Shown here in pieces: positions 2,473 to 29,308 of a DNA stretch of 64,000 bases. Where the stretch lies: NCBI GenBank assembly GCA_041491005.1, contig JBGPUE010000002.1:17218-81217 (forward strand), read 5' to 3'. The notes beneath the pieces are model-generated. The model had not been told where the DNA came from and did not search any database. It was given only the letters and a program-made list of their open reading frames with translations. Made by a program: the position numbers and the translations under genes. This DNA comes from Candidatus Binataceae bacterium (GTDB lineage: Bacteria > Desulfobacterota > Binatia > Binatales > Binataceae). Every line of letters starts with the position of its first letter. Within the stretch, counting starts at the first letter, position 1.

Positions 2473-3273
2473 TCACGCGACTGGAGCGGCTTCTGCTGGC
2501 GATCGCAGATTCAGCGCCGGTCGCAGCCCGATCCCATAGTCGGCTTCAAGGTCGTAACGGCGCCCGTGAAGGACGCCTTCACCGTTGGCGATCACGAGCT
2601 TGCGCGCTCGCACGTCTTCGATCCAGCGCGGATGCGACGCTTCGGCGCGCCGGTTCGCGATCGCGCGCAGGTGCGCTGGTTCATCAATGCCGACAGACAT
2701 CTGCGCGTAATCATGCTCGATGCGCCTCCGCACTGTCTCGCCGATGCCACCGTTCTGGACGCGGATATCGAACATCAACGCCACCGCCCGCTCGCTCATC
2801 ACGCCATGGGCGAGGGATAGCGCCCGCGCTGTCGCGAACATCCCGGCCGCATGCCGCAGTTGTATCGCTCGGAATTCCGGCGATCGTCCGAGTCCGGTGA
2901 ACATCACGCGCCAGGGCCCGGCGATCGCATGACGCGCATCCTGAATTGATCGCGCCCATCGCAGCTGCTGGGCGCGCGGCGCGGTGAGCATGTTTCTGAA
3001 TTCGGCGGCGCCCGCGCCGAAGATCTTGTCGACAAGCGCGGCATGGAGCGTGGCCATCTCGATTAGCAACTGCTGCAGGCTGCCCTCGCCCAGATTCCAC
3101 TGGCATGCACCCAAGCTTAGTCCTTGACCGTCGAAATCGCCGGCAATCCCGGCGAAGCAATCCGGCGGCGCAAATCCGGTCTCGAATGAACCCGTCAGCG
3201 CGAGGCAGCGCATCGCGAGATCGTCCGATCGGAGATCGACTACACCACGGGCACCCGTCGCGCCGGACGCCAT
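2473..3273 (-). CDS. hypothetical protein, possibly a lysozyme-like fold glycoside hydrolase (GH46 chitosanase-like pattern)
   Basis: 266-aa ORF with coding-like composition. The E...(18 aa)...D spacing and the GIAGDFDGQGLSLGACQWNLGEG segment recall GH46 N-terminal catalytic motifs. The family assignment is speculative. Confidence 0.35.
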   Translation of the reverse strand: MASGATGARGVVDLRSDDLAMRCLALTGSFETGFAPPDCFAGIAGDFDGQGLSLGACQWNLGEGSLQQLLIEMATLHAALVDKIFGAGAAEFRNMLTAPRAQQLRWARSIQDARHAIAGPWRVMFTGLGRSPEFRAIQLRHAAGMFATARALSLAHGVMSERAVALMFDIRVQNGGIGETVRRRIEHDYAQMSVGIDEPAHLRAIANRRAEASHPRWIEDVRARKLVIANGEGVLHGRRYDLEADYGIGLRPALNLRSPAEAAPVA

Positions 3274-4195: not shown

Positions 4196-4627
4196 ATGCT
4201 GCCGGCCGTGAATCGCATCTCATATCGCGCCAAGCCCGCGGCCTCCAACGCGGTCCTCAATGGCTTGTTCAAGGCGAGCTGGCCGAATCACCGGGCGCGC
4301 GACTTCCAGCCCATGCTGCGCCGTAGCCTCACTCATGTGTGCGCCTACGATGCGCGGCGGCTGGTCGGCTTCGTCAACGTGGCTTGGGATGGCGATAAGC
4401 ATGCGTTCCTGCTCGACACCACCGTGCATCCGTCGACACGTCGGTGCGGCATCGGCAGCGAACTCGTGCGTCGCGCGGCGGAGTTAACGAAGCAGGCCGG
4501 CGCCGAGTGGCTGCATGTGGACTTCGAAGCTGAGTTGACGCATTTCTATCGCGTGTGCGGCTTCCGCAGTACGAGAGCCGGGCTGATCCATTTGTCGGGA
4601 GCCGTCATCCAGCGGCGTGCGAAGTAG
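4196..4627 (+). CDS. GNAT family N-acetyltransferase
   Basis: 143 aa with a GNAT acetyl-CoA-binding motif (LLDTTVHPSTRRCGIGSELVRRAAELTKQAGAEWLHVDF). Confidence 0.7.
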   Translation: MLPAVNRISYRAKPAASNAVLNGLFKASWPNHRARDFQPMLRRSLTHVCAYDARRLVGFVNVAWDGDKHAFLLDTTVHPSTRRCGIGSELVRRAAELTKQAGAEWLHVDFEAELTHFYRVCGFRSTRAGLIHLSGAVIQRRAK

Positions 4628-5228
4628 TCGCTTGAGGCTGCCTCGCGATTTCTATGCGCGGCCAGTCCTGATCGTCGCGCGCGAGTGCATCGGCAAGGTT
4701 CTGGTTCATCGCACGCCCGAGGGTGAGGCGGCGGGGCGGATCGTCGAAGCCGAGGCCTATCGCGGCCCGCTGGATCGCGCCGCGCATAGCTGGCGCGGAT
4801 TGACGAAACGGACCGCAGCGATGTTCGGCCCGCCGGGATACGCCTACATTTACCTGCTCTATGGAACGAGCTGGGCCTTGAATCTGGTCGCCGCATCGGA
4901 AGGCGAGCCGCATGCGGTGTTGATTCGGGCACTGGAGCCGCTGCGCGGACTGGAATTGATGGCGCGGCGTCGAAGCAGGTTTGCCGATTCGCGCGATCTG
5001 ACAAATGGTCCGGGCAAGCTGACTCAAGCCCTCGCGATCACTGGCGCTGACTACGGCCGCGACTTATGCGGGGAGGAACTTTTCCTCGAAGAGCCGGAGC
5101 GTCCGGTCGGGAGGATAGGACGCTCGATGCGCATCAACGTGGAATCCGCCGGCCGCCCGTGGAATGAGAAGCCGTGGCGCTTCTACGAGCGCGCCAATCG
5201 ATACGTGTCGGTCCGCCCCCGCGATTGA
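4617..5228 (+). CDS. mpg: DNA-3-methyladenine glycosylase (Mpg/AAG family)
   Basis: 203 aa. N-terminus LPRDFYARPVLIVARECIGKVLVH and GPPGYAYIYLLYG are typical of Mpg. Its last 102 bp are repeated at 9538..9639. Confidence 0.8.
   Translation: MRSSRLRLPRDFYARPVLIVARECIGKVLVHRTPEGEAAGRIVEAEAYRGPLDRAAHSWRGLTKRTAAMFGPPGYAYIYLLYGTSWALNLVAASEGEPHAVLIRALEPLRGLELMARRRSRFADSRDLTNGPGKLTQALAITGADYGRDLCGEELFLEEPERPVGRIGRSMRINVESAGRPWNEKPWRFYERANRYVSVRPRD
5127..5228 (+). repeat. Direct repeat copy 1 (3' end of mpg), ~88% identical to 9538..9639
   Basis: atgcgcatcaacgtggaatccgccggccg...cgcgattga is found twice, encoding ...RINVESAGRPWNEKPWRFYERANRYVSVRPRD* here and ...RINVESAGRLWNEKPLRFYERANRYVSLHPRD* downstream. 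Confidence 0.9.
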
Positions 5229-5383
5229 TATCTGCCGCTATCCGACAGATATCCGTTGGACCCATGGCAAGTGATATTGAGCCTACGCCTTTTTAGTTCG
5301 CTAGATATAAGCTTTGAAAGGTTGACTTTCTCTTTTAGGCCGATAAGTTGCGTCTACGCTCGCCGATGCGCTGAATCACCTGA

Positions 5384-8300
5384 ATGGCGGCGAAGCCGGA
5401 AGTTCGAAGGGATATGACTGGTAACTCCACCGGAAAGGCAAGGATTCTCGCGGCGATTGGACTTACTATCGCCGCTTTGCAAATCGGTGGTTGCACCTCC
5501 AGCGACGAGCCGCAAACGAATACTGGCAATAGCGCGATCGCCGGTCTGTGTTCGGCCGCCTTCCAGCCAGCGGCGAGAGTCACGTCGGGACGTTCTCTCT
5601 TGGGAGTAAGGGGTGCCGCCGAGATTGTCGCGCCGGTTCCGCTTTCAGGATGTTCCAAGGACGCGAACAACAATGTGACGATCGGCTCCGGCGGTTGCGG
5701 GCCCAACGTCTACGTCGACCAGTCGTTCACCGGAAGCCAAAAATTGGGAAAGATAACCATCGCATCCGACGGCGGACTGGCTTTCCTCCACGATGGATCC
5801 TTCGACCTCGAAACGACCGGTATCGAAGTCAATGGCCTGCTATCGGTTGGGACTTCGACGTGCTCGGTCGGAAACGACAGCATCAACGACAAGATCACGA
5901 TCAGGTTTCTCGGGTCGAAGCCAACGTCAGGCACCGATCATAGCAAGGGAATCATCGTCAACAGCGGCGGCATCCTGCGGATGTTCGGCAGGAAGGGAGT
6001 GCCCGTCAATACGAAGCAGGTAGGCATCAGCTGGACGTACCTGGCGGATGCGGCGGGGCCGGCGACGCCCGGCGCGGGCAGCGCGCCAACCGGAACGACC
6101 GTCCTGCAATTGGCCGATCCAGTCGATTGGCAGCCTAACGATTGGATCGTCGTGGGAACCTCGACCTTCAGTCCGTTCGAAAGCGAGTTCGTGCAAATCC
6201 AGACCGTCACGCCCCGTCCCGCAACCACCAACTTGCCGGCGGGAAGCATGATCACCCTCAATCCAATAACGCCGCTGGTGCATTATCACTTCGGCGGACC
6301 CGCTCCCAGTGCAGGCGCGTCGAACCCGAATTGCAAAGACCACGATGACAAGCTGATTCCCGCGTCGTTCTGCGATGGTGCGGACAGGAACTACGGCGTG
6401 GACGAACGCGCCGAGGTCGGGCTTGTCACCCGCAGCGTCAAGCTGACCTCTGATACCTCCAGCAGCGCCCATTGGGGCGGCGAGATCATGGTCATGGCGG
6501 GTTTCAAGGAAGTATCGATCCAGGGGGTCGAAATCGAGAAATTCGGCAAAGACCAACTCGCCAGTTATCCAATCCACTTTCACAAGGCCGGCGCGCTGGT
6601 CAACCCTCCCGACGCGCCGATTGTCACGGTCAACGCGAACAGCGTTCATCACAGCTACAACAAATGCATGACCATTCATTCCACCAGCAACCTGACTATC
6701 CAGAACAACGTCTGTGCGCGGATCGTCGGGCATATCTTCTACGAGGAAATCGGCGACGAAGCTGGCATCAGCTTTCAGAATAACCTGGGCCTCGGCGCGA
6801 TGAGCCACTATTTCGGCTTGGCGCCCAGCGTTCCCCTCAATCCCGTTACCAACAAGCCCAAAGACTTTTGGGAGGGTGACTACCTCGGCAACAACATCGG
6901 TTACGACGGCTTCGGCATCCCCAACACCGATGACCAGACCAATCCGACACATAGCTCCTGCTACACGTCCAACGGGGCGGGTGGACTCGCCTTCGCGAAC
7001 CTGGTGCCCTGCACGGCGACCCAGTACTACGTAGAGCCCGCCAGCGGATTCTGGCTTGTCAACCCGAGCGCCGTGCTGCAGGGCAATTCGATTGGCGGAT
7101 GCCAGGGCGTCGGCGTCGGTTACTGGTATCTTCCACCATCAGACCCGCCGACGCCGGTGACAGTCCCGCCGACGCCTCCGATTTTGCATACCGAGAAGTT
7201 TCAGCCGGTTGGTTTGTTCAAGAACAACCGAGCCCACGCCTGCTACGACGGCATCTTTGGCGAGACCCAATTTGGCGTGAAGTCGGAGCAACTGCAGCCG
7301 CGCGTGGGCGGGGTCAACGCGGGGAAGTCGCTGATCGCCAGGTTTGACGGATTCACCTCGACGCGCAATCGCGACCGCGGCGTCTGGATGAGACCGGTCT
7401 GGTTTCTCTTCGAGAACGCCCGGCTGGCAACCAATCGCGACGATGTTTCGCTCTTGAGCTCAGGCGGAAATGACGGCAACGGCCCCGGCGTATGGGCGAT
7501 GCTCAAAGATTCGGTGCTGGTCGGACTGAGCCGCAACAATGTGGATCGCTTCGGGCCGTGCCCAGCCAACGCGGCACAGAGCTTCGGATGCGTAGACCAC
7601 AATCCGCAAGCAAACGACGAAGTTGAGAGAGGCTATCCCATCGCCCGTTGGAACATGGCGGGCTACTACATCTACGATGGCCCAGTCCGCATGTTTCACG
7701 ACCGCTTCGTCAACTTTAACAAGACCATCGCTCCGAGCTTGACGACGGCTGATCAAACGACGCTTGCGGGCTTCACTAACTATCCAAATGCCAACACCTC
7801 TGGACCATACGAGGGCGACGCCGCATTGGGATGGTTCCAGAACAATCAGAGCGCATATCCTACTGCGACCGTAGCCCGGGAACTGGTCTTCGAAAACGTC
7901 GATCTCCGGCATCAGATCTTCACAGAAAAGGTCAACTTCGGGAACTTCGATGACGGCGACAAGAACACCGCGATCCTTGATGAGGACGGTTCGCTGACCG
8001 GCTTCCAGGCTGTCAACAGCACCGGCGTGCAGGTGCCGACCCTGATTCCGATCTCGCTCAACAATCTTCCGTTCAACGCTTCGTCGAACTCGGTGGATGA
8101 GTGTCACGCCCAAGGCGGACAGGATGGCGCCCTCGAAGGTCGGCCGACTTCGCTGATCTCGCCTGGGAACATGGGAACGCTGGAATTTGGCGCGCTCTTT
8201 CCGGCCCGTGATACCATTCCGATCCCGCCCACGGATTCGACTCAGCTGATGACGTTTGCGAAAGACTCGACTGACTACGGCGCCCATCAGACGATGACCC

Positions 8301-9457
8301 TGCACAGCCGCAACGGCCAAGGCATCTGGGAACCCAAGGTAACCAGTGGCTTTGGCTATACGATCAGCGCGGCCCCGGCGCTCGACAAGAATATTTATCC
8401 AAACACCAGCGGCAAGGCGGGTATTCCGAACCTGGTTGATGTCGGCGTGGGTGACGTCGTGAAGCCCGGCATCAGCAAGGCCAATCCGTTCTACGTTCGT
8501 CTCGGCATCTGCTACACGAATCAGGACGGCAGCCATCCAGCGGCGGGACATTTCACTATCACACGCGGCTACAAGTCATACGGCGGCAATGCCGTAAATC
8601 AGAGCGACGCTGATCTTCAGCTGTTGTTCAACTACCTCGACCAGCGCTTCCAAGGGCAAACCTGCATCAATCTCGACGACGGCAACGCGCGCAATCTGGA
8701 CCCGAACAATCTCGGGAAAGGATGCCCGGCCAATGGCGTCACTGCCAAACCGACGGGAGGATGCCCGGCCGATTCAAGCGCAGGAACGGCCCAAGACAAC
8801 AACCCGGCCTGCATCTACTCGATCCAGTGCACCCAGGGCGATCCGAATTGCCCATGCCCGGGCGGGGGTAGCGCCTGCGGCCGCACGAGCGACGCGAGCA
8901 ATCCGATGCTTCCGATCGATGCCGCCAACACGATGACTCCCGCTGACGACATCAAGGAGTTGACCAATACCGACGGTACTTTCAAGAATCTCAACGCATT
9001 CTACTACGATCAAACCACCGGGATGCTTTTTTTCTACGTCACCCAGGATTCGCCCAATGCGTTTGGAGCGTCACCGCTGGGCAGCTGCAGTAATCCGCCC
9101 AATCCGGCGACCGATGATCCGGCTTGTCCAAATCTCAGTAAGGGGGAGAGTTACTATTCGTGCCCGAAGCAGGGCTGCACTACGTATATCGTGAAGCTCA
9201 ACGATTCGACCTACAATCCAGGACCGTCAAAGTGCCCGAGTACCGATCCGACTGCGATCTACGGCGTCAGCAGCGGCATATATGCTCAGCCTGTACCGCC
9301 GAATCAGAACAAGCTGGTGTATGTCGAGAACATCAGCAACGTCGTCACGCGGGTTCAGCCCGATCCGCAGGTATCAGGGCAGGGCTTCCAACATTCGGTG
9401 GCGGCAGCCAGTCCGGTCTGCCCCAACCCGACGCCGACCGCCACGCCTGGACCGTGA
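5384..9457 (+). CDS. Very large (1357 aa) lipoprotein with a G8-like domain plus parallel beta-helix (CEMIP/TMEM2/PKHD1-like), Pro/Thr linkers and Cys-rich C-terminal modules; putative secreted polysaccharide-active enzyme or adhesin
   Basis: Lipoprotein signal with lipobox (LAAIGLTIAALQIGGC). Residues ~100-210 look G8-like (ITIASDGGLAFLHDG...ITIRFLGSKP...IIVNSGGILRMFG). Beta-helix-type stretches follow (HHSYNKCMTIHSTSNLTIQNNVCARIVGHIFYEE). The C-terminus is Cys-rich (CPANGVTAKPTGGCPADS...CIYSIQCTQGDPNCPCPGGGSAC). GC and codon usage are lower than in flanking genes. Confidence 0.6.
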   Translation: MAAKPEVRRDMTGNSTGKARILAAIGLTIAALQIGGCTSSDEPQTNTGNSAIAGLCSAAFQPAARVTSGRSLLGVRGAAEIVAPVPLSGCSKDANNNVTIGSGGCGPNVYVDQSFTGSQKLGKITIASDGGLAFLHDGSFDLETTGIEVNGLLSVGTSTCSVGNDSINDKITIRFLGSKPTSGTDHSKGIIVNSGGILRMFGRKGVPVNTKQVGISWTYLADAAGPATPGAGSAPTGTTVLQLADPVDWQPNDWIVVGTSTFSPFESEFVQIQTVTPRPATTNLPAGSMITLNPITPLVHYHFGGPAPSAGASNPNCKDHDDKLIPASFCDGADRNYGVDERAEVGLVTRSVKLTSDTSSSAHWGGEIMVMAGFKEVSIQGVEIEKFGKDQLASYPIHFHKAGALVNPPDAPIVTVNANSVHHSYNKCMTIHSTSNLTIQNNVCARIVGHIFYEEIGDEAGISFQNNLGLGAMSHYFGLAPSVPLNPVTNKPKDFWEGDYLGNNIGYDGFGIPNTDDQTNPTHSSCYTSNGAGGLAFANLVPCTATQYYVEPASGFWLVNPSAVLQGNSIGGCQGVGVGYWYLPPSDPPTPVTVPPTPPILHTEKFQPVGLFKNNRAHACYDGIFGETQFGVKSEQLQPRVGGVNAGKSLIARFDGFTSTRNRDRGVWMRPVWFLFENARLATNRDDVSLLSSGGNDGNGPGVWAMLKDSVLVGLSRNNVDRFGPCPANAAQSFGCVDHNPQANDEVERGYPIARWNMAGYYIYDGPVRMFHDRFVNFNKTIAPSLTTADQTTLAGFTNYPNANTSGPYEGDAALGWFQNNQSAYPTATVARELVFENVDLRHQIFTEKVNFGNFDDGDKNTAILDEDGSLTGFQAVNSTGVQVPTLIPISLNNLPFNASSNSVDECHAQGGQDGALEGRPTSLISPGNMGTLEFGALFPARDTIPIPPTDSTQLMTFAKDSTDYGAHQTMTLHSRNGQGIWEPKVTSGFGYTISAAPALDKNIYPNTSGKAGIPNLVDVGVGDVVKPGISKANPFYVRLGICYTNQDGSHPAAGHFTITRGYKSYGGNAVNQSDADLQLLFNYLDQRFQGQTCINLDDGNARNLDPNNLGKGCPANGVTAKPTGGCPADSSAGTAQDNNPACIYSIQCTQGDPNCPCPGGGSACGRTSDASNPMLPIDAANTMTPADDIKELTNTDGTFKNLNAFYYDQTTGMLFFYVTQDSPNAFGASPLGSCSNPPNPATDDPACPNLSKGESYYSCPKQGCTTYIVKLNDSTYNPGPSKCPSTDPTAIYGVSSGIYAQPVPPNQNKLVYVENISNVVTRVQPDPQVSGQGFQHSVAAASPVCPNPTPTATPGP

Positions 9458-9503
9458 TGTCCGCCGGGATTCGAGCAGCGCTTCGCGTCGATTCCTTCCG
9501 TTC

Positions 9504-9531
9504 TGGTGGGCGGTGCAGGGATCGAACCTGC
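9504..9531 (-). repeat. 28-nt partial copy of the tRNA-Val 3' end (att-like remnant)
   Basis: tggtgggcggtgcagggatcgaacctgc is identical to the 3' 28 nt (including CCA) of the tRNA-Val at 10474..10548, in the same orientation, and diverges immediately afterwards. Confidence 0.8.
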
Positions 9532-9537
9532 AACTAC

Positions 9538-9639
9538 ATGCGTATCAACGTGGAATCCGCCGGCCGTCTGTGGAATGAGAAGCCGTTGCGCTTCTACGAA
9601 CGCGCCAATCGCTATGTCTCGCTCCACCCGCGCGATTGA
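9538..9639 (+). pseudogene. Displaced duplicate of the mpg 3' end (direct repeat copy 2); not an intact gene
   Basis: 102 bp ~88% identical to 5127..5228, encoding the last 33 codons of Mpg plus stop. The upstream frame is fused to an unrelated sequence (ORF 9160..9639 is chimeric). Confidence 0.8.
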
Positions 9640-9672
9640 TCGCCTTCTGAATAACGGCTCGAAGCTTCCCGC

Positions 9673-9692
9673 TGGTGGGAGGTGCAGGGGTC
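9673..9692 (-). repeat. Degenerate second partial copy of the tRNA-Val 3' end
   Basis: tggtgggaggtgcaggggtc matches tggtgggcggtgcagggatc at 18 of 20 positions, in the same orientation. Confidence 0.5.
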
Positions 9693-9733
9693 TAAAATGC
9701 GACCGGCCGAATCCCGGCCATCCAGGCGACCGA

Positions 9734-10159
9734 CTAACTCCGGCTGCGGGCCGACTGAAGTGAACCGGCGCGTGCTCGACGACCTCGGATCGTTCGAGGA
9801 CGACGGTTCGGGTGCCCGCCCGTTGCGCCCGCGCCAGCGGCCAGCAATGCCACAAGCTCCTGATTCAGAGAGACGCCGTCCACTGCGGCAAGGCGTGTAA
9901 GGCGTTCATGAAGGGAACGCGGGAGGCGCAGGCGTAGCTGGCCGGAATGCCCTGAAGTCACATCCGTAGGAGGGACAGCGGAGCCGTGGTGGCGCATCGA
10001 GGCGATGATGGCTCGGGCGGCAATTACTGCCTCACGGGTGGCCTCTTCAGGCCGGTGGCCATGGGCTGCGCATCCCGGCAGCGCGGGTACACGGGCGATA
10101 AAGGCATCATCCTCATCGCTCCACTCCACAACGACACGATATCCGAAAGTCTCTGCCAT
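9734..10159 (-). CDS. hicB: HicB family antitoxin (type II toxin-antitoxin)
   Basis: N-terminal HicB/UPF0150 fold (YRVVVEWSDEDDAFIARVPALPGCAAHGHRPEEATREAVIAARAIIASM) plus a C-terminal RHH-like DNA-binding segment (LRLPRSLHERLTRLAAVDGVSLNQELVALL). Overlaps the hicA stop (ATGA). Confidence 0.75.
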   Translation of the reverse strand: MAETFGYRVVVEWSDEDDAFIARVPALPGCAAHGHRPEEATREAVIAARAIIASMRHHGSAVPPTDVTSGHSGQLRLRLPRSLHERLTRLAAVDGVSLNQELVALLAAGAGATGGHPNRRPRTIRGRRARAGSLQSARSRS

Positions 10160-10416
10160 CAGTCTACCTTGAGTTCATAACTTTCGATGAGTCCCAAGAT
10201 TTGCCGGACCTGGTACGGCTTGGCTTTTCCCGATGCGCCCTCTTGAAGGTTGACAAGCGGCAGATCCGGCCGCGACGGATGCCGATAGATGCGGTGCGAC
10301 CCGCGTTTCCGGTCGAGCACATAGCCCAGATGCAACAGAAGTCCGCACAAGTCGCGAAAGCGGATGTTCGCTGGACTGCGTCGCGCCGTCTCGGCAAGCT
10401 CCGCCCATCGCCCCAC
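10159..10416 (-). CDS. hicA: HicA family mRNA interferase toxin (type II toxin-antitoxin)
   Basis: 85 aa in the YcfA/HicA family (RKRGSHRIYRHPSRPDLPLVNLQEGASGKAKPYQVRQILGLIE), sitting upstream of hicB. Confidence 0.8.
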   Translation of the reverse strand: MGRWAELAETARRSPANIRFRDLCGLLLHLGYVLDRKRGSHRIYRHPSRPDLPLVNLQEGASGKAKPYQVRQILGLIESYELKVD

Positions 10417-10473
10417 CAGCGAGACGATACCGCATATGGAACCACGGCACTAGCCCCGGAGCGGCTCGGCTCC

Positions 10474-10548
10474 TGGTGGGCGGTGCAGGGATCGAACCTG
10501 CGACCCTCGGTGTGTAAGACCGATGCTCTACCGCTGAGCTAACCGCCC
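10474..10548 (-). tRNA. tRNA-Val (anticodon UAC)
   Basis: The reverse complement is GGGCGGTTAGCTCAGCGGTAGAGCATCGGTCTTACACACCGAGGGTCGCAGGTTCGATCCCTGCACCGCCCACCA. It forms a canonical cloverleaf (7-bp acceptor, D and T arms) with a CTTACAC anticodon loop and an encoded CCA, 75 nt in total. Confidence 0.9.
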
Positions 10549-16950: not shown

Positions 16951-17316
16951 TCAGCGATCGTCCGGGGCGTCGTCGGGTGCTTCGTTCGACGGCGGCGCCA
17001 CGCGATGGGTACCTAGACCGTGGTGCTCGAGGGGTTTGTGCGTCGGCTCGGAAGCCGCCGGGTCGTCCTCGGCTCCTTCGAGTGCGACTCCCTGGTACAG
17101 CGGGCGATACTCCGAGCCGAGGTCGCGGACTCGCGCCGACAACTCGAAGGCCCGGTCGGCCAGCTCGGGCGTCTCCGCGCGTGCCGTTCCGGTCGCTGCT
17201 GTGAGCGCGAGCCCACAGACGAATGCAGCGGACCATCCGAGCGCTGACGCCCGGCTGCATTCGCGACCTCGCGCGTTGTGGGAACGTTCCACCTTCCTCC
17301 GCCTATTATAGCCCAT
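16951..17316 (-). CDS. hypothetical small secreted protein
   Basis: Signal-peptide-like segment (LGWSAAFVCGLALTAATGTARA) followed by an acidic C-terminus. Weak evidence: no clear RBS, and the ORF-finder's longer version is implausible. Confidence 0.25.
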   Translation of the reverse strand: MGYNRRRKVERSHNARGRECSRASALGWSAAFVCGLALTAATGTARAETPELADRAFELSARVRDLGSEYRPLYQGVALEGAEDDPAASEPTHKPLEHHGLGTHRVAPPSNEAPDDAPDDR

Positions 17317-17566
17317 AACAAGCGCGCGTGTTCTTTCAAGCGGCCCCGGGCGGGAGTTTCGATGCGAGTCGGAGTGCCGCTCGGGTTGCGCGATGGAAGC
17401 ACCCGCCTGACATCGCGCGAGCGAAAAACTGATGATGAACGAGCCGGTGCTACCGACGATGGCAGTCGGTATTCTCTGGGTGATTTGGGGGACAGAGATT
17501 CCCGACGAATCTTTGGAACTCAACGAGAGTTAGTGTGAACGCTTCTCTTCGGCGTCGCCGCGAAAG

Positions 17567-18004
17567 CTATTTCGAGGTAACAGGGGGCGTTTGAACGGCA
17601 GGCGGGGTTTGAACGGCTGGTGGGGTTTGAACGGCTGGTGGGGTTTGAACGGCTGGTGGGGTTTGAGCGGCCTTCGCGGTGTTCACCACGTCTCCAACAA
17701 CCCGGATGCATTGCCGGTTGTACAAAATTGTAAGGAGCATGTCGTTGTAGGCGGTGACATTAGTCATCATGTCGCCATCTGGAACCTGGGCTACGGCTCG
17801 ATCTACCGCATCTTGCAGATTCGGATTTAGCGTTCCTATCGGGATAAAGAGCACCATATTGACGCAGTCCTCTCCTGTTACTCCCTGCTGCAAGGGCGGA
17901 TACGTGTAACCGAGATTCTTGGTGGACGCCATCGTGAAACTACCCAAGCGAAGAGAACAACCTCCGACTACGAGAGTCAAAACCACCAGGCAGAGCTGTT
18001 TCAT
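17567..18004 (-). CDS. Lipoprotein of unknown function carrying a C-terminal (AVQTPP)x5 tandem repeat
   Basis: Lipobox LVVGGC. A conserved core (GEDC...NPNLQDAVDRAVAQVPDGDMM...C.RVVGDVV) is shared with the adjacent paralog. The C-terminal repeats are encoded by 18-bp tandem units. Confidence 0.6.
   Translation of the reverse strand: MKQLCLVVLTLVVGGCSLRLGSFTMASTKNLGYTYPPLQQGVTGEDCVNMVLFIPIGTLNPNLQDAVDRAVAQVPDGDMMTNVTAYNDMLLTILYNRQCIRVVGDVVNTAKAAQTPPAVQTPPAVQTPPAVQTPPAVQTPPVTSK
17589..17675 (-). repeat. Coding tandem repeat of ~5 x 18 bp (ggggtttgaacggctggt)
   Basis: Directly visible as a tandem repeat and in frame within the lipoprotein gene (AVQTPP units). It is not a CRISPR: units are contiguous with no spacers. 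Confidence 0.85.
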
Positions 18005-18390
18005 GGCCGTACTATCCCCGCGCCCGGCGTCTGAGCAATTTTGACCACATCTCCCTTAACCCGGAAGCACTCGCTACTCCCCAAGATGTAGAAAGTCGGG
18101 TCGTCGTAGAGCGCGACATTCGCCATGGCGTCGCCTTCTGGCAGCTGTGCCATGGCGCGATCGATAGCCTCCTGCAAGTTGGGAACGAGGCTGCCGCTGA
18201 CGGGAAGTCCGAGAACCGTATAGATGCAATCGGTACCCTCGACTTCACGGCCGAGGGGCTTGGAAGGAATGTTAACGTTGTGTGTAGCCAGTGCGGTCAT
18301 CGTGCCCATATTGAACGAGCACCCCGCAGCCGCACACGCTGCACCAAGATAGACTAGGCACGCTAGCCGGGACCTATTCACTCGCGACAC
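18001..18390 (-). CDS. Paralogous lipoprotein of unknown function (no tandem repeat)
   Basis: Lipobox AAAGC. Shares GTDC...PNLQEAIDRAMAQLPEGDAM...C.RVKGDVV with the neighbour. The GTG start at 18390 is preceded by a G-rich SD-like run; the exact start is uncertain. Confidence 0.5.
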   Translation of the reverse strand: MSRVNRSRLACLVYLGAACAAAGCSFNMGTMTALATHNVNIPSKPLGREVEGTDCIYTVLGLPVSGSLVPNLQEAIDRAMAQLPEGDAMANVALYDDPTFYILGSSECFRVKGDVVKIAQTPGAGIVRP

Positions 18391-18650
18391 TTTCTGGGAG
18401 CCCCCCCACAGCTTTTGACGGGTTCTCTCTTCGGAGCCCGTTGAGCGGGAGGTACAGGATGGAGCCTCAATTTGCAAGCTTGGGAGCGAAAAAGACAGGC
18501 GCCTCTGGCCGGCGCGCCGCCTTCATCGCGAGTACGATCCCCGCGATGACCGAGTCGTCGACGGCTCTAGCGGGCATCGCGGTCGGGTCTCAACATCCGA
18601 ACGCTCTCCTCTGGCGTGTGCAGGCGGAGCGCTTCGTGCCGGGTTTGGGA

Positions 18651-26361: not shown

Positions 26362-26450
26362 TGTCTTTCGTCTGCCACGCATCAAGTAACTCGACGCTGT
26401 GGCGGCGCCGATTCGTTTCGCAAGGCCGTATCGTCTGCGATAATCCGCGC

Positions 26451-27500
26451 ATGGCGAAGGCAGTGCCGATGGAGGCGGTGGTCGAGGCGCTGGGGAAGAT
26501 AAAATACCCTGGCTACAGCACCGACATCCTCACGCTCGGATTGATCGACGATCTCGCCGCGACGCCGGATGGCGGTTTCAAGCTCACGCTCCGCCAGGCG
26601 ACCGAACGCGACGAGCTGATGCGCGAACTCGCCAGCGCGATCCATCGCGAACTCACGCATGACCTCGGCATCGCCAACCTCGAGCTCAAGGTGCGGCGGC
26701 TCGAGCCCGAACTCGGCGAGAAGACCGGCAAAGTCAGGCTCGAAGGCGTCCGTCATGTAATCGCCGTCGCCAGCGGCAAGGGCGGCGTCGGCAAATCGAC
26801 GGTCGCAGCGAACCTCGCTGTCGCGCTGAGCCAACTCGGGCATAAGGTCGGCCTGCTGGATGCCGACATCTATGGGCCGTCGGTGCCGATGATGTTCGGC
26901 ACGGGTGAGATGCGCCCGAAATCGAAGGACGGCCGCACCTTCTACCCGATTGAGATGCACGGATTGAAGCTGATCTCGATCGGCTTCTTCCTGGGCGAGA
27001 AGGCGCCGATCATCTGGCGCGGTCCGATGGTAATGGGGGCAGTGAAGCAGTTCCTCAAGGACGTTATCTGGGGTGAGCTGGACTTTCTGGTCGTCGATCT
27101 GCCGCCCGGCACCGGCGATGCGCAGTTGACGCTTGCGCAGCAGGTCTATCTGGACGGCGCGGTCATTGTCACCACGCCCCAGGATGTCGCGGTGCTTGAC
27201 GCGGAGCGGGCGGTCAAGATGTTCCGGCAGGTGCATTGCCCGATGCTCGGCGTGGTCGAGAACATGAGCTACTTCGTATGCTCTGATTGTGGCGAGCGCG
27301 CCGAATTGTTCGGCGCGGGCGGCGGAGAGCGGATGGCGAAGACGGAAGAGATGGAATTGCTGGCGCGGCTGCCGCTGTATTCCGAGCTGCGCGAGGCGGG
27401 CGACGCCGGCCTGCCGATCGCGATCGCGCATCCCGACCATCCGGCCAGCAAGGCCTTCGTTGAGCTTGCCAAACGGGTCATCGCCCAGATGAGCCGCTAG
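26451..27500 (+). CDS. apbC: Mrp/NBP35 family iron-sulfur cluster carrier ATPase (ApbC)
   Basis: N-terminal MIP18-like domain, Walker A (GKGGVGKST) and CxxC motif (CSDCGE). Start set at MAKAVPMEAV; the ORF-finder start lies inside the repeat element. Confidence 0.85.
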   Translation: MAKAVPMEAVVEALGKIKYPGYSTDILTLGLIDDLAATPDGGFKLTLRQATERDELMRELASAIHRELTHDLGIANLELKVRRLEPELGEKTGKVRLEGVRHVIAVASGKGGVGKSTVAANLAVALSQLGHKVGLLDADIYGPSVPMMFGTGEMRPKSKDGRTFYPIEMHGLKLISIGFFLGEKAPIIWRGPMVMGAVKQFLKDVIWGELDFLVVDLPPGTGDAQLTLAQQVYLDGAVIVTTPQDVAVLDAERAVKMFRQVHCPMLGVVENMSYFVCSDCGERAELFGAGGGERMAKTEEMELLARLPLYSELREAGDAGLPIAIAHPDHPASKAFVELAKRVIAQMSR

Positions 27501-27650
27501 CGGGCAACCCCCCTTGCTCATGCGCCAAGCCGCCGTTATTCTTCCCGACTAATTGATCGGAACTGAAAGGCAAGACCGCTTCATTCGGCGCTGCCCGCGG
27601 CCGAACCTCCCAGCCGCTCCATAACGATACAAGGAACGCTTTGAAACGGG

Positions 27651-27986: not shown

Positions 27987-28204
27987 CCGCGCTTGCACCG
28001 GGGGTGAGGTGAAGAAGAGCGGGAGGAATCGGAGCGACGGAGTCGCGCAGGCATCGAGCCCGGCAAGCGTGGGGCCGCTGTTTACATCGCGGGACCGCTC
28101 CGATACAAGGCACGAGAGCCTGCGTTTGGCTATGGGGGCGCGGGCTGGTGTGTGCGCCGCATCAACGGGGGAGCGGAGCGCCGTCCCTGAACTGAGTGGG
28201 TGGA

Positions 28205-29308
28205 ATGTCCAAGATTAGGGTGGCAATCGCTGGTGTCGGCAACTGCGCCTCGTCGCTGTTGCAGGGAATCGAGCACTACAAACACGCTCCGCTCAACGAG
28301 AAGGAACCGCCGATCGGCCTGATGCACTACGATCTCGGCGGCTACCGGCCCGGCGACATCGAGGTCGCTTGCGCATTCGACGTCGATGCGCGCAAGGTCG
28401 GCCGTCCGCTCGAGGAAGCCTGCTTTGCGCCGCCCAACAACACGCTGACCATCTGGCCCGACCTGCCGGAATACGGCGTCCATGTGGACATGGGCGAGAT
28501 TCACGACGGGATCGCCGAGCACATGTCTGCCTATCCGCCTGAGCGCTCTTTTGTGGCCGCCAAGGAGCCGCCGGTCAATATCGAGAAGCGGCTCAGCGAT
28601 ACTGGCGCTGAGGTACTGCTCTGCTATCTGCCGGTCGGCAGCCAGAATGCCGTCGAGCGATACACCCGCGCATGCCTCGCCACTGGCGTCAGCCTGCTCA
28701 ACTGCATGCCGGTATTCATCGTTTCCACCGAGAAGTGGGCCAAGCAGTTCAGCGAGCGCGGCATCCCGGCGATTGGCGACGACGTCAAATCGCAGCTTGG
28801 CGCGACGATCCTGCATCGCACGGTGATGCGCCTGTTCGCCGAGCGGGGCATCAAGATCCGCCACACCTATCAGCTCAATACCGGCGGCAACACCGACTTT
28901 CTCAACATGCTCGATCGCAAGCGGCTGGGGTCCAAGCGCGTCTCCAAGACCGAGGCGGTGCAGAGCGTGCTCGCCGATCCGATGCCCGCCAACGATGTCC
29001 ACATCGGCCCGTCTGACTACGTTCCGTGGCAGAAGGACAACAAGGTCTGCTTCATCCGCATCGAGGGTGAGGGCTTCGGTGGCGTGCCGGTCGAGCTGGA
29101 GGCACGCCTGTCGGTCCAGGATTCGCCCAACTCCGGCGGCATCGTGATCGATGCGATCCGCTGCTTGCGCCTGGCGCGCGATCGCAAGATCGGCGGCCCG
29201 CTGTACTCGATGTCGGCCTATTCGATGAAGCATCCGCCGCAGCAGATGATCGACGACGTCGCACGCGAACGGGTCGAGAAGTTCATCGCCGGCGAACTCG
29301 AGCGCTAG
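28205..29308 (+). CDS. ino1: myo-inositol-1-phosphate synthase (archaeal/bacterial short type)
   Basis: MSKIRVAIAGVGNCASSLLQGIEHYK is the characteristic MIPS N-terminus. Rossmann fold plus C-terminal catalytic domain, ~368 aa. Confidence 0.8.
   Translation: MSKIRVAIAGVGNCASSLLQGIEHYKHAPLNEKEPPIGLMHYDLGGYRPGDIEVACAFDVDARKVGRPLEEACFAPPNNTLTIWPDLPEYGVHVDMGEIHDGIAEHMSAYPPERSFVAAKEPPVNIEKRLSDTGAEVLLCYLPVGSQNAVERYTRACLATGVSLLNCMPVFIVSTEKWAKQFSERGIPAIGDDVKSQLGATILHRTVMRLFAERGIKIRHTYQLNTGGNTDFLNMLDRKRLGSKRVSKTEAVQSVLADPMPANDVHIGPSDYVPWQKDNKVCFIRIEGEGFGGVPVELEARLSVQDSPNSGGIVIDAIRCLRLARDRKIGGPLYSMSAYSMKHPPQQMIDDVARERVEKFIAGELER

What the first reader, a model, noticed from the sequence alone, without database searches (positions are those of the whole stretch)
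5384..9457. 1357-aa lipoprotein combining a G8-like domain, parallel beta-helix repeats and Cys-rich C-terminal modules
After a lipoprotein signal (lipobox IGGC) the protein shows a G8-like segment (eight spaced Gly in ITIASDGGLAFLHDG...IEVNGLLSVG...ITIRFLGS...IIVNSGGILRMFG), long stretches with beta-helix-type periodicity and Asn/His ladders (HHSYNKCMTIHSTSNLTIQNNVCARIVGHIFYEE), two Pro/Thr linkers (PPTPVTVPPTPP; PNPTPTATPGP at the C-terminus) and a C-terminal region with at least 14 Cys in CxC/CPxG arrangements. G8 plus beta-helix is the architecture of CEMIP/TMEM2 hyaluronidases and PKHD1. Bacterial members are essentially uncharacterised, and here one is mobile cargo. It could be a surface polysaccharide depolymerase or adhesin.
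Basis: partly seen in the sequence, partly recalled or inferred. Interest (0 to 1): 0.55.

Follow-up and report, generated by a model that had tools for sequence, protein, structure and literature searches.

The report
Bacterial CEMIP/TMEM2-like beta-helix lipoprotein
This gene encodes a large secreted, probably membrane-tethered bacterial relative of the animal proteins CEMIP and TMEM2 that keeps their conserved beta-helix core but lacks their sugar-binding lectin domains; it belongs to an already catalogued but untested family and could be a simple model for what that core does.

Summary
ORF 5384-9457 (+) encodes 1357 aa with a signal peptide and an IGGC lipobox. Pfam finds a G8 domain (E 9e-9) and a CEMIP beta-helix (E 8.5e-42). 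The only solved relative is the TMEM2 ectodomain (profile E 4.5e-64). An AlphaFold model (pLDDT 86.8, pTM 0.90) matches TMEM2 along its length (Foldseek E 2.5e-40). The C-terminal third matches only TMEM2, which fits its "domain X".

The bacterial protein differs from animal CEMIP/TMEM2. Both GG lectin-like domains are absent. The first "Pro/Thr linker" is a variable loop inside the helix. The CxC-rich stretch is a lineage-specific, poorly modelled insertion.

More than 400 full-length homologues (42-56% identical) occur in soil and freshwater bacteria, without conserved gene neighbours. None is characterised in the literature I could search.

The host is a Binataceae genome. The gene lies in core chromosome next to a tRNA-Val integration hotspot and is flanked by duplicated junction scars, but no recombinase gene is present. 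"Mobile cargo" is therefore only partly supported.

Most likely function: a stand-alone extracytoplasmic glycan-binding or glycan-depolymerising protein with an unknown, probably non-hyaluronan substrate. It is a new member of a known kind, of moderate interest.

The parts
5384..5494 (+). Signal peptide ending in lipobox I-G-G-C37 (residues 1-37). An alternative in-frame ATG at codon 11 gives the same mature protein.
   Evidence: Translation. Relaxed lipobox match; 39/121 homologues have a strict lipobox. Many homologue N-termini end in L-A-G/A-C.
5495..5644 (+). Poorly conserved tether between the lipidated Cys and the folded part (residues 38-87).
   Evidence: Highly variable and gapped columns in the family alignment. 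Not included in the model.
5645..5998 (+). G8 domain, forming the N-terminal turns of the beta-helix (residues 88-205).
   Evidence: Pfam PF10162 E 9.1e-9, residues 95-205. Aligns to TMEM2 chain 26-155. Strand-rich and confidently modelled. In TMEM2 the G8 domain is part of the helix (PMC10206443).
5999..6388 (+). Small beta-sandwich insertion with the W-x-P-N/G-D-W-I-V-V motif (residues 206-335). No GG-1 lectin domain is present here.
   Evidence: Strands at residues 217-292 in the model. TMEM2 chain 155-328 (sandwich plus GG-1) corresponds to only about 35 profile positions.
6389..7783 (+). CEMIP-type right-handed parallel beta-helix core (residues 336-800). It includes a long conserved loop (471-550) and the variable Pro/Thr loop (585-600).
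   Evidence: Pfam PF24606 E 8.5e-42. TMEM2 alignments. Model secondary structure. Foldseek hits to TMEM2 and beta-helix depolymerases.
6566..6748 (+). Most distinctive conserved patch: Y395-P-x-H398-x-H400, H422-H423-S, C428-x-x-x-H432, C444-x-R446, G449-H450, Y453-x-E455, on three consecutive helix rungs. This is the candidate functional site.
   Evidence: These residues are invariant or nearly invariant in the 34-, 55- and 105-sequence alignments. The His residues, C428 and E455 are identical in human TMEM2. The rung assignment is inferred from DSSP strands.
7784..8809 (+). Domain-X-like beta-sandwich region (residues 801-1142), containing the D857-G-D-K-N-T...D866-x-D868-G motif (nt 7952-7990).
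   Evidence: The C-terminal model matches only TMEM2, E 7.2e-9. The DGDKN...D.DG motif is shared with TMEM2. Conservation is high.
8810..8938 (+). Lineage-specific Cys-rich insertion (residues 1143-1185, containing CTQGDPNCPCPGGGSAC).
   Evidence: Present only in the window protein and its closest relatives P0002-P0007. pLDDT below 50. Mean most-common-residue frequency 0.14.
8939..9457 (+). Conserved C-terminal segment with the F-Y-Y-D-x-x-T-G-M-L-F-F-Y-V motif, paired Cys residues and a Pro/Thr tail (residues 1186-1357, plus the stop codon).
   Evidence: The motif aligns weakly to TMEM2 chain 1016-1078, stretch E 0.78. Invariant C1235, C1248, C1260, C1265. Model.
5127..5229 (+). Direct repeat copy A: the functional 3' end of the methylpurine-DNA glycosylase (MPG) gene (4617-5228).
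   Evidence: the repeat finder family D1. Alignment. Pfam Pur_DNA_glyco.
9538..9640 (+). Direct repeat copy B: an orphan copy of the MPG 3' end, 89% identical, in frame, with its stop codon retained.
9503..9534 (.). Fragment 1 of the tRNA-Val 3' end (31/32 identical to the true gene), 45 nt after the G8 stop codon and 3 nt before repeat copy B.
   Evidence: the repeat finder family D2. Alignment.
9672..9703 (.). Fragment 2 of the tRNA-Val 3' end (26/32), at the left edge of the hicBA islet.
9734..10416 (-). hicB (9734-10159) and hicA (10159-10416) toxin-antitoxin pair between fragment 2 and the tRNA gene.
   Evidence: Pfam HicB/HicB_lk_antitox. Pfam HicA_toxin.
10474..10548 (-). Intact tRNA-Val (TAC), a recurrent integration site in related genomes.
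   Evidence: ARAGORN. In L083 an integrase-bearing element follows the same tRNA. In L088 a primase/HTH_17 element follows it.

Best explanation
The gene encodes a secreted, disulfide-rich protein. It is probably lipid-anchored through Cys37 and, having no Asp at position +2, probably sorted to the outer membrane.

[quoted passage not shown] It lacks both GG lectin-like domains of the animal proteins.

I infer that it works alone, outside the cytoplasm, as an endo-acting binder and depolymerase of a polysaccharide. The proposed active region is a conserved surface along the helix: the His cluster at residues 395-455, the ladder of invariant Arg/Glu/Asp/Asn residues on following rungs, and two conserved covering loops. 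The shared DGDKN...D.DG motif may bind Ca2+.

The substrate is unknown. In a soil Binataceae bacterium it is unlikely to be hyaluronan. An anionic microbial, fungal or plant exopolysaccharide is more plausible.

Shown: the ORF, the signal/lipobox, domain membership, fold, collinearity with TMEM2, absence of GG-1 (no GG-2 equivalent detected), family-wide conservation and the lack of conserved neighbours. Inferred: membrane location, catalysis, the site of action and the substrate class.
For: - Domain and family: Pfam G8 and CEMIP_beta-hel above their cut-offs. TMEM2 is the sole PDB relative, at E 1.6e-29 and 4.5e-64.
- Fold: AF2 model with pLDDT 86.8 and pTM 0.90. Foldseek gives TMEM2 at E 2.5e-40 with TM 0.54-0.57. 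All other hits are beta-helix polysaccharide lyases, hydrolases and phage depolymerases: K1 capsule lyase 7w1c, K64-1 depolymerase, GH110, GH87 and tailspikes.
- C-terminal third: matches only TMEM2.
- Conservation: 42-56% identity over about 93% of the length in more than 400 homologues. Invariant polar residues are concentrated on consecutive helix rungs, and many are shared with human TMEM2.
- Export: signal peptides or lipoboxes across the family and 30 non-lipobox Cys point to an oxidising extracytoplasmic location.
- Stand-alone action: no conserved neighbour in 80 genomic loci.
- Calcium: it is reported as necessary for TMEM2 activity (PMC10474455).
Against: - No activity is known for any bacterial member.
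- The animal paradigm is itself disputed. The purified human TMEM2 ectodomain showed no hyaluronidase activity and no assignable active site (PMC10206443).
- In animals, HA degradation depends on the GG-1 domain, which is missing here (PMC12423501).
- No catalytic motif of any established GH or PL family was detected. Sequence searches hit only TMEM2.
- I could not read model coordinates, so the surface exposure and clustering of the invariant residues are inferred from strand periodicity only.
- No polysaccharide-utilisation or EPS genes lie nearby.
Confidence: 0.5

Rival explanations
1. It is a non-catalytic surface adhesin or glycan-binding scaffold. The beta-helix and domain X only bind a polymer or another cell-surface component, as proposed by those who find TMEM2 catalytically inactive.
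For: Purified sTMEM2 lacks detectable activity and has no assignable active site. Human TMEM2 is described as a regulator rather than an enzyme (PMC10276149, listed). The beta-helix adhesin PfbA appears among the structural matches (rank 18). A recurring partner lipoprotein lies next to 13 of 82 homologue loci, which could indicate a complex.
Against: The many invariant His, Arg, Glu and Asp residues on successive rungs, conserved from bacteria to human, are more typical of a catalytic groove than of an adhesin surface. The best structural neighbours after TMEM2 are enzymes.
Confidence: 0.25
2. It is a true hyaluronidase, functionally orthologous to CEMIP/TMEM2, that degrades hyaluronan or a closely related glycosaminoglycan.
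For: It is homologous and collinear with TMEM2, which the PDB entry names 'cell surface hyaluronidase'. Mouse TMEM2 is reported to be catalytically active (PMC10474455).
Against: The GG-1 domain is absent, and its residues (R265, D273, D286; H248/A303) are needed for HA degradation in animals. The host and its relatives are free-living soil and freshwater bacteria such as Binataceae, Burkholderiales, Bryobacteraceae and NC10, which have no obvious hyaluronan source. No uronate-utilisation genes lie nearby.
Confidence: 0.05
3. The conserved His cluster is a metal centre, and the family carries out chemistry other than classical glycoside hydrolysis or beta-elimination, for example metal-dependent or oxidative cleavage or modification of a polymer.
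For: Six His residues (398, 400, 422, 423, 432, 450) sit on three adjacent rungs and are conserved in TMEM2. The TMEM2 crystal structure is at 3.5 A, too coarse to exclude a bound metal. No canonical GH or PL motif was found.
Against: There is no direct evidence of metal binding. His residues also act as general acid or base in beta-helix lyases and epimerases (my own knowledge).
Confidence: 0.12
4. The gene is cargo of a mobile element. A 4411-bp circular segment carrying the gene integrated by a single crossover in the 3' end of the MPG gene, next to tRNA-Val.
For: 103-nt direct repeats (89% identical) lie exactly 4411 bp apart and flank the gene, and a 31/32 tRNA-Val 3' fragment abuts the distal repeat. 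The upstream spacer is AT-rich (GC 0.47) and the gene's GC is 0.59 against about 0.63-0.65 nearby. The same tRNA-Val carries an integrase element in a sister strain and another element in L088. Homologue neighbourhoods are variable and paralogues are multiple.
Against: There is no integrase, transposase or excisionase in or beside the unit. GC3 is 0.73, within the host range of 0.70-0.87. An equally simple alternative exists: the gene is native next to tRNA-Val, and the hicBA element imported a fossil 'MPG 3' end - 31 nt - tRNA fragment' junction from a former host. No donor with an MPG-G8 arrangement was found among 82 homologue loci.
Confidence: 0.4

Closest known systems
TMEM2 / CEMIP2 ectodomain (PDB 8c6i; human 'cell surface hyaluronidase')
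   Same: [quoted passage not shown] - Shared core motifs: YPxHFH, HHS, CxTxH, GH, NNR, YDGP.
- A domain-X-like beta-sandwich with the DGDKN...D.DG motif, and a weakly aligned F-Y-F/Y-D..TG-L/M-LF motif (stretch E 0.78).
- Many disulfides and an extracellular location.
(PMC10206443)
   Different: - No GG-1 lectin-like domain: TMEM2 chain 155-328 is unmatched.
- No GG-2 lectin-like domain or C-terminal helix equivalent detected.
- Anchored by a probable N-terminal lipid rather than a type II transmembrane helix.
- A longer covering loop (residues 471-550).
- An extra lineage-specific Cys-rich insertion.
- Only 16% identity in the structural alignment.
- Bacterial, free-living host.
CEMIP / HYBID (KIAA1199), secreted animal hyaluronan-depolymerisation factor
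   Same: The same Pfam families (G8 PF10162, CEMIP_beta-hel PF24606), and both carry an N-terminal signal rather than a transmembrane helix (PMC12423501).
   Different: CEMIP has two GG domains. Its GG-1 residue R187 is needed for HA depolymerisation, and it needs living cells for activity. None of this applies here.
Beta-helix polysaccharide depolymerases (Klebsiella K1 capsule lyase 7w1c, phage tailspikes, GH87 alpha-1,3-glucanase, GH110 alpha-galactosidase, PL6 enzymes)
   Same: A right-handed parallel beta-helix with a long groove, and extracellular action on polysaccharides. They are structural matches at E 1e-7 to 1e-2.
   Different: TM-scores are only 0.1-0.3 with 6-10% identity. No sequence-level relationship and no shared catalytic motif were detected. 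These enzymes have no G8 turns or domain X.
PKHD1 / PKHD1L1 (fibrocystin family) G8-PbH1 modules
   Same: This rests on literature titles and my own knowledge.
   Different: Those are very large multi-IPT/TIG receptors. I made no direct comparison here beyond the Pfam G8 hit.

Membership tests
CEMIP/TMEM2 superfamily (G8 + CEMIP beta-helix core) | G8 domain (Pfam PF10162) at the N-terminus | tested here: met
   35.7 bits against a cut-off of 22.9, residues 95-205. Aligns to TMEM2 G8 at chain 26-155.
CEMIP/TMEM2 superfamily (G8 + CEMIP beta-helix core) | CEMIP-type beta-helix (Pfam PF24606) | tested here: met
   143.7 bits against a cut-off of 27.3. TMEM2 is the only PDB sequence match, at E 4.5e-64 with the family profile.
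CEMIP/TMEM2 superfamily (G8 + CEMIP beta-helix core) | Overall fold collinear with the TMEM2 ectodomain, including the unique 'domain X' | tested here: met
   Foldseek E 2.5e-40, TM 0.57/0.54 for the full model. The C-terminal model hits only TMEM2, E 7.2e-9. Assigning that hit to domain X is my inference from the alignment positions.
Animal CEMIP/TMEM2 hyaluronan-depolymerising proteins (strict sense) | GG-1 lectin-like domain inserted after the third helix turn, with the residues required for HA degradation | tested here: not met
   TMEM2 chain 155-328 has no counterpart (profile positions 197-232 only). No GG/ILEI Pfam hit at E<=1. The role of GG-1 is described in PMC12423501.
Animal CEMIP/TMEM2 hyaluronan-depolymerising proteins (strict sense) | GG-2 lectin-like domain and C-terminal helix | tested here: not met
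   No Pfam hit. The profile alignment ends at TMEM2 chain 1078 of 1301. Only about 130 residues follow the shared motif, and they are mostly coil with short strands.
Animal CEMIP/TMEM2 hyaluronan-depolymerising proteins (strict sense) | Hyaluronan-degrading activity | not testable with these tools
   Needs biochemistry. The activity is disputed even for TMEM2.
Bacterial lipoprotein | Signal peptide with a lipobox ending in Cys | tested here: inconclusive
   I-G-G-C37 follows a hydrophobic h-region and fits a relaxed lipobox. The strict PROSITE-like pattern fails on Q at position -4. 39/121 homologues pass the strict pattern. No dedicated predictor (LipoP or SignalP) was available.
Established CAZy beta-helix lyase/hydrolase families | Sequence membership or the family's catalytic motif | tested here: not met
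   No PDB chain other than TMEM2 is matched by the sequence or the profile. Only the generic Beta_helix PF13229 appears, below its cut-off. The resemblance is structural only.
Integrative genomic island / mobile-element cargo | Recombinase (integrase or transposase) within or beside the unit | tested here: not met
   The neighbours are MPG, GNAT, MlaC, HicBA, tRNA-Val, Lon, ClpX, ClpP and trigger factor.
Integrative genomic island / mobile-element cargo | Flanking direct repeats and adjacency to a tRNA gene | tested here: met
   103-nt repeats at 5127-5229 and 9538-9640. tRNA-Val 3' fragments at 9503-9534 and 9672-9703. tRNA-Val at 10474-10548.
Integrative genomic island / mobile-element cargo | Atypical composition and presence/absence polymorphism among close relatives | tested here: inconclusive
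   GC is 0.59 but GC3 is 0.73, within the host range. The orphan MPG-tRNA junction implies an allele without the gene. The sister-strain contig L083 has the gene truncated at nt 7530 beside an integrase element.

The most novel reading that the evidence does not exclude
The beta-helix plus domain X core shared by this bacterial family and animal CEMIP/TMEM2 is the real catalytic module. It would have a previously undescribed active site built from the invariant His cluster (398, 400, 422, 423, 432, 450) with R446, E455 and E383, and a Ca2+-type DxDxN...DxDG loop. On this reading the bacterial proteins are autonomous endo-depolymerases of non-hyaluronan polysaccharides, and they would found a new carbohydrate-active enzyme family. 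They would also settle, in a GG-domain-free system that may be expressible in E. coli, whether the CEMIP/TMEM2 core is an enzyme.
Probability: 0.3. Interest if true: 0.7.

Novelty: new member of a known kind. Interest (0 to 1): 0.4.

Why it matters
Whether CEMIP and TMEM2 are enzymes, and where their active site lies, is an open and contested question in hyaluronan biology (PMC10206443, PMC10276149, PMC10474455). This bacterial family keeps the conserved beta-helix/domain X core, including a His-rich patch identical in human TMEM2. It lacks the lectin domains and the type II transmembrane anchor that complicate work on the animal proteins.

A bacterial member is therefore a simple test object for the core's chemistry. 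It may also be a source of new polysaccharide-degrading activities from little-studied soil phyla such as Binatota, Acidobacteriota and NC10.

For genome annotation, the result is ordinary. The gene is correctly described as a 'G8 domain-containing protein' of unknown substrate.

Tried and rejected
Searches that found nothing:
- NCBIfam: no meaningful hit.
- Exact-sequence contig look-ups for P0001 and for the 1357-aa protein: not on record. The source contig was reached through Lon instead.
- Literature on bacterial G8/CEMIP homologues: nothing found.
- Promoter and terminator scan: nothing above chance.
- tblastn for MPG, GNAT, HicA/B and Lon next to G8 homologues elsewhere: none, so no donor arrangement was found.
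- The recurring partner lipoprotein: no Pfam or PDB match, and no copy in the window.
- Viral structure library: only generic tailspike and depolymerase beta-helices.

Conserved gene neighbourhood:
- Clustering ORFs in 80 genome loci and running Pfam on all -1 and +1 neighbours gave no family in more than 4 of about 70 loci.
- I therefore rejected an operon- or PUL-based functional inference.

- Structure job with 105 sequences: too large.
I replaced it with a single-sequence search.

Readings rejected:
- The Cys-rich C-terminus as EGF-, CBM- or other known modules: no Pfam or fold match.
- The PPTPVTVPPTPP segment as an interdomain linker: it is a variable loop within the helix.
- The NCBI-style short start (1285 aa): homologues conserve the signal peptide.

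Full report
**1. The observation**

ORF 5384-9457 (+) is real and is the only long ORF across these coordinates. It encodes 1357 aa.
- The N-terminus has a basic n-region, a hydrophobic core and I-G-G-C37.
- The protein has 31 Cys, 15 of them from residue 1043 onward.

Pfam and PDB searches confirm the domain assignment.
- G8 (PF10162): 35.7 bits against a cut-off of 22.9, residues 95-205.
- CEMIP_beta-hel (PF24606): 143.7 bits against a cut-off of 27.3.
- NCBIfam finds nothing meaningful.
- The only solved structure matched by sequence is 8c6i, the human TMEM2 ectodomain. E is 1.6e-29 with the single sequence and 4.5e-64 with a 34-sequence family profile.

That did not happen.

**2. Anatomy**

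An AlphaFold2 model of residues 86-1285, built on 55 homologues, has mean pLDDT 86.8 and pTM 0.90.
- Foldseek against the PDB puts TMEM2 first: E 2.5e-40, TM 0.57/0.54.
- Every other significant hit is a beta-helix polysaccharide lyase, hydrolase or phage depolymerase with a low TM-score.
- The viral library gives the same picture.

A second model covers residues 886-1357 (pLDDT 82.9).
- It matches only TMEM2 (E 7.2e-9) and nothing else below E 0.05.
- The C-terminal third therefore corresponds to TMEM2's 'domain X', which its authors call unrelated to any other known structure (PMC10206443), plus a conserved tail.

The profile-to-TMEM2 alignment shows what is shared and what is missing.
- Aligned: the G8 turns, the small sandwich with the W-x-P-G/N-D...V-V motif, the helix core and the DGDKN...D.DG motif.
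- Aligned only weakly (stretch E 0.78): the F-Y-x-D..TG-x-LF motif near the C-terminus.
- Missing: TMEM2 chain 155-328, the sandwich plus GG-1 lectin-like domain, corresponds to only about 35 profile positions.
- Missing: nothing matches beyond chain 1078, where GG-2 and the terminal helix would lie.

- The 'PPTPVTVPPTPP linker' sits in a variable-length loop inside the helix.
- The CxC/CPCP stretch (about residues 1143-1185) occurs only in the window protein and its nearest relatives. It is modelled with pLDDT below 50, and its mean most-common-residue frequency is 0.14.

**3. The family**

The word-indexed search returned 436 proteins.
- The top 120 are full-length (about 1250-1530 aa), 42-56% identical over roughly 90-99% of the query, and nearly all carry the same two Pfam families.
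- Their only names are 'hypothetical protein' or 'G8 domain-containing protein'.

An exhaustive phmmer search of 1.84 billion 50%-identity representatives found 2483 proteins at E<=1e-3, 1267 at E<=1e-10 and 160 at E<=1e-30.

In species-representative genomes, 159 stretches encode relatives.
- Hosts include Binataceae, Burkholderiales (Variovorax, Xenophilus, Ramlibacter, Rubrivivax), Casimicrobiaceae, Bryobacteraceae and Acidobacteriota, Methylomirabilota and Methylobacter.
- Several genomes carry two or more copies.
- Some copies are in tandem (L037, L065).

Conservation is high across the helix core and the domain-X-like region.
- The most distinctive patch is Y395-P-x-H398-x-H400, H422-H423-S, C428-x-x-x-H432, C444-x-R446, G449-H450 and Y453-x-E455.
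- By the model's strand pattern, these residues lie on two adjacent sheets of three successive rungs.
- The His residues, C428, E383 and E455 are identical in human TMEM2.
- Further invariant residues follow on later rungs and in the two long loops: D499, E551, N568, Q574, N615, E627, R663, R665 and R670.
- In TMEM2 the equivalent loops cover the concave face.
- The TMEM2 crystal structure is at 3.5 A, so it cannot exclude a bound ion at such a site.

**4. Genomic context**

The gene sits in core chromosome.
- Upstream: an RND pump and its membrane-fusion protein, MlaC, a GNAT and methylpurine-DNA glycosylase (MPG).
- Downstream: hicB, hicA, tRNA-Val, then lon, clpX, clpP and tig.

The Lon protein is 82-87% identical to Candidatus Binataceae MAG proteins. 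The window is part of a 181.5-kb JGI metagenome contig.

There is no conserved partner across the family.
- I clustered ORFs in 80 loci and ran Pfam on all immediate neighbours. No family recurred in more than 4 of about 70 loci.
- The two closest homologues sit in unrelated neighbourhoods.
- One uncharacterised lipoprotein of 465-507 aa lies next to the G8 gene in 13 of 82 loci. It has no Pfam or PDB match and no copy in the window.

**5. Is it mobile cargo?**

There is no recombinase in or beside the gene. GC is 0.59, but GC3 is 0.73, within the host range of 0.70-0.87.

The flanks do carry scars.
- The last 103 nt of the MPG gene (5127-5229) recur at 9538-9640, at 89% identity, in frame and with the stop codon retained.
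- Two copies of the tRNA-Val 3' end lie at 9503-9534 (31/32) and 9672-9703 (26/32).
- The order is: MPG(A) - 155 nt - G8 - 45 nt - fragment 1 - 3 nt - MPG 3' end (B) - 31 nt - fragment 2 - hicBA - tRNA-Val.

Two histories fit this layout.
- (a) A 4411-bp circle carrying the gene integrated by a single crossover in the MPG 3' end.
- (b) The gene is native beside tRNA-Val, and the hicBA element integrated at the tRNA carrying a fossil 'MPG 3' end - 31 nt - tRNA fragment' junction from an earlier host.
- Either way, an allele with MPG directly next to tRNA-Val, without this gene, existed somewhere.

The tRNA-Val site is a hotspot.
- A sister-strain contig (L083) is 97.4% identical from lon to the tRNA.
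- Immediately after the tRNA it carries an element with integrase, HTH_17 and AAA_25 genes.
- That element then joins directly to the interior of the G8 gene (window 7530-7214, 97.8% identical), leaving a truncated 133-aa ORF.
- Another Binataceae contig (L088) has a primase/HTH_17/AcrVA2-like element after the same tRNA.

I therefore rate 'mobile cargo' as partly supported. It is an accessory-looking gene at a dynamic locus, not demonstrably carried by an element now.

**6. Mechanism**

Shown:
- The protein is exported and disulfide-rich.
- It is a single beta-helix/domain X body homologous to the CEMIP/TMEM2 core.
- It is strongly conserved.
- It has no conserved genomic partners.

Inferred:
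- Lipidation at C37 and outer-membrane sorting, because there is no Asp at +2. This applies the E. coli Lol rule from my own knowledge.
- A long conserved groove with His, Arg, Glu and Asp residues that binds and cleaves a polysaccharide.
- Possible Ca2+ binding at D857-x-D859-x-N861...D866-x-D868-G. Calcium is reported as necessary for TMEM2 activity (PMC10474455).

Three points argue against hyaluronan as the substrate.
- The hosts are free-living environmental bacteria.
- GG-1 is absent, and residues of this domain are required for HA degradation in animals (PMC12423501).
- No glycosaminoglycan-utilisation genes are nearby.

Confidence:
- Family membership: about 0.95.
- A carbohydrate-directed function: about 0.75.
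- True depolymerase activity: about 0.5.

The main rival is a non-catalytic binder, which echoes the negative enzymology on human TMEM2.

**7. Comparison and novelty**

The protein works like, and belongs to, the CEMIP/TMEM2 superfamily core. It fails the strict definition of the animal hyaluronan-depolymerising proteins because it has no GG domains. It shows no sequence membership in any established beta-helix GH or PL family.

Both Pfam families and the NCBI name already cover such bacterial proteins, so this is a new member of a known kind.

Its value is as a GG-free, bacterial version of a core whose catalytic status in animals is disputed. Interest is moderate, at 0.4.

Noticed in passing
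window 5127-5229 and 9538-9640; 9503-9534 and 9672-9703: A 103-nt direct repeat of the 3' end of the methylpurine-DNA glycosylase gene (89% identical, 4411 bp apart) and two partial copies of the tRNA-Val 3' end bracket the G8 gene and the hicBA pair. These are nested insertion scars that preserve an 'MPG - 31 nt - tRNA-Val' fossil junction.
   Followed up: yes
window 9734-10416 (-): A hicB/hicA toxin-antitoxin pair lies alone between a degenerate tRNA-Val 3' fragment and the intact tRNA-Val. It looks like the remnant of an integrated element that has lost its integrase. Its GC3 (0.60 and 0.67) is the most atypical among the genes measured in the window.
   Followed up: partly
L083 3754-8114 (sister strain, JGI 3300052992) versus window 7214-10472: In a contig 97.4% identical across lon-hupB-tRNA-Val, an element with integrase, HTH_17 and AAA_25 genes follows the tRNA and then abuts the interior of the G8 gene (window nt 7530). 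The last 1.9 kb of the gene, the scars and hicBA are missing there, leaving a truncated 133-aa ORF. There is no repeat at the junction, and assembly chimerism is not excluded.
   Followed up: partly
L088 12110-19832 (another Binataceae contig): The same tRNA-Val(TAC) downstream of lon-hupB is followed by a different mobile-looking gene set (HTH_17, Toprim primase, AcrVA2-like). This tRNA is therefore a recurrent integration hotspot in the family.
   Followed up: partly
L035 8207-9601, L082 6420-7943 and 11 other loci: An uncharacterised 465-507 aa lipoprotein (lipobox LTAC in L035, no Pfam or PDB match, 41-58% identical between loci) lies directly next to G8-family genes in 13 of 82 loci, mostly immediately upstream on the same strand. 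No copy is present in the window.
   Followed up: partly
L037 10013-18208; L065 9529-17965; L001/L004 (Xenophilus sp. L33): G8/CEMIP-type genes occur as tandem duplicates or as several dispersed paralogues within single genomes.
   Followed up: no
window 5384-5599: One database version of this gene (P0001, 1285 aa, NCBI source) starts 72 codons downstream and drops the signal peptide and lipobox. The JGI version (P0121) has the full 1357 aa. The short start is a likely annotation error.
   Followed up: yes
window 5229-5383: The 155-nt spacer upstream of the gene is markedly AT-rich (GC 0.47 in a 63% GC genome). No sigma-70 consensus match passed the scan's thresholds.
   Followed up: partly
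window 2473-3273 (-), 16951-17523 (-), 18001-18477 (-), 26382-27521 (-), 28130-29233 (-): Several sizeable ORFs in the window have no Pfam match at the thresholds used. In this high-GC sequence some may be spurious or on the wrong strand.
   Followed up: no
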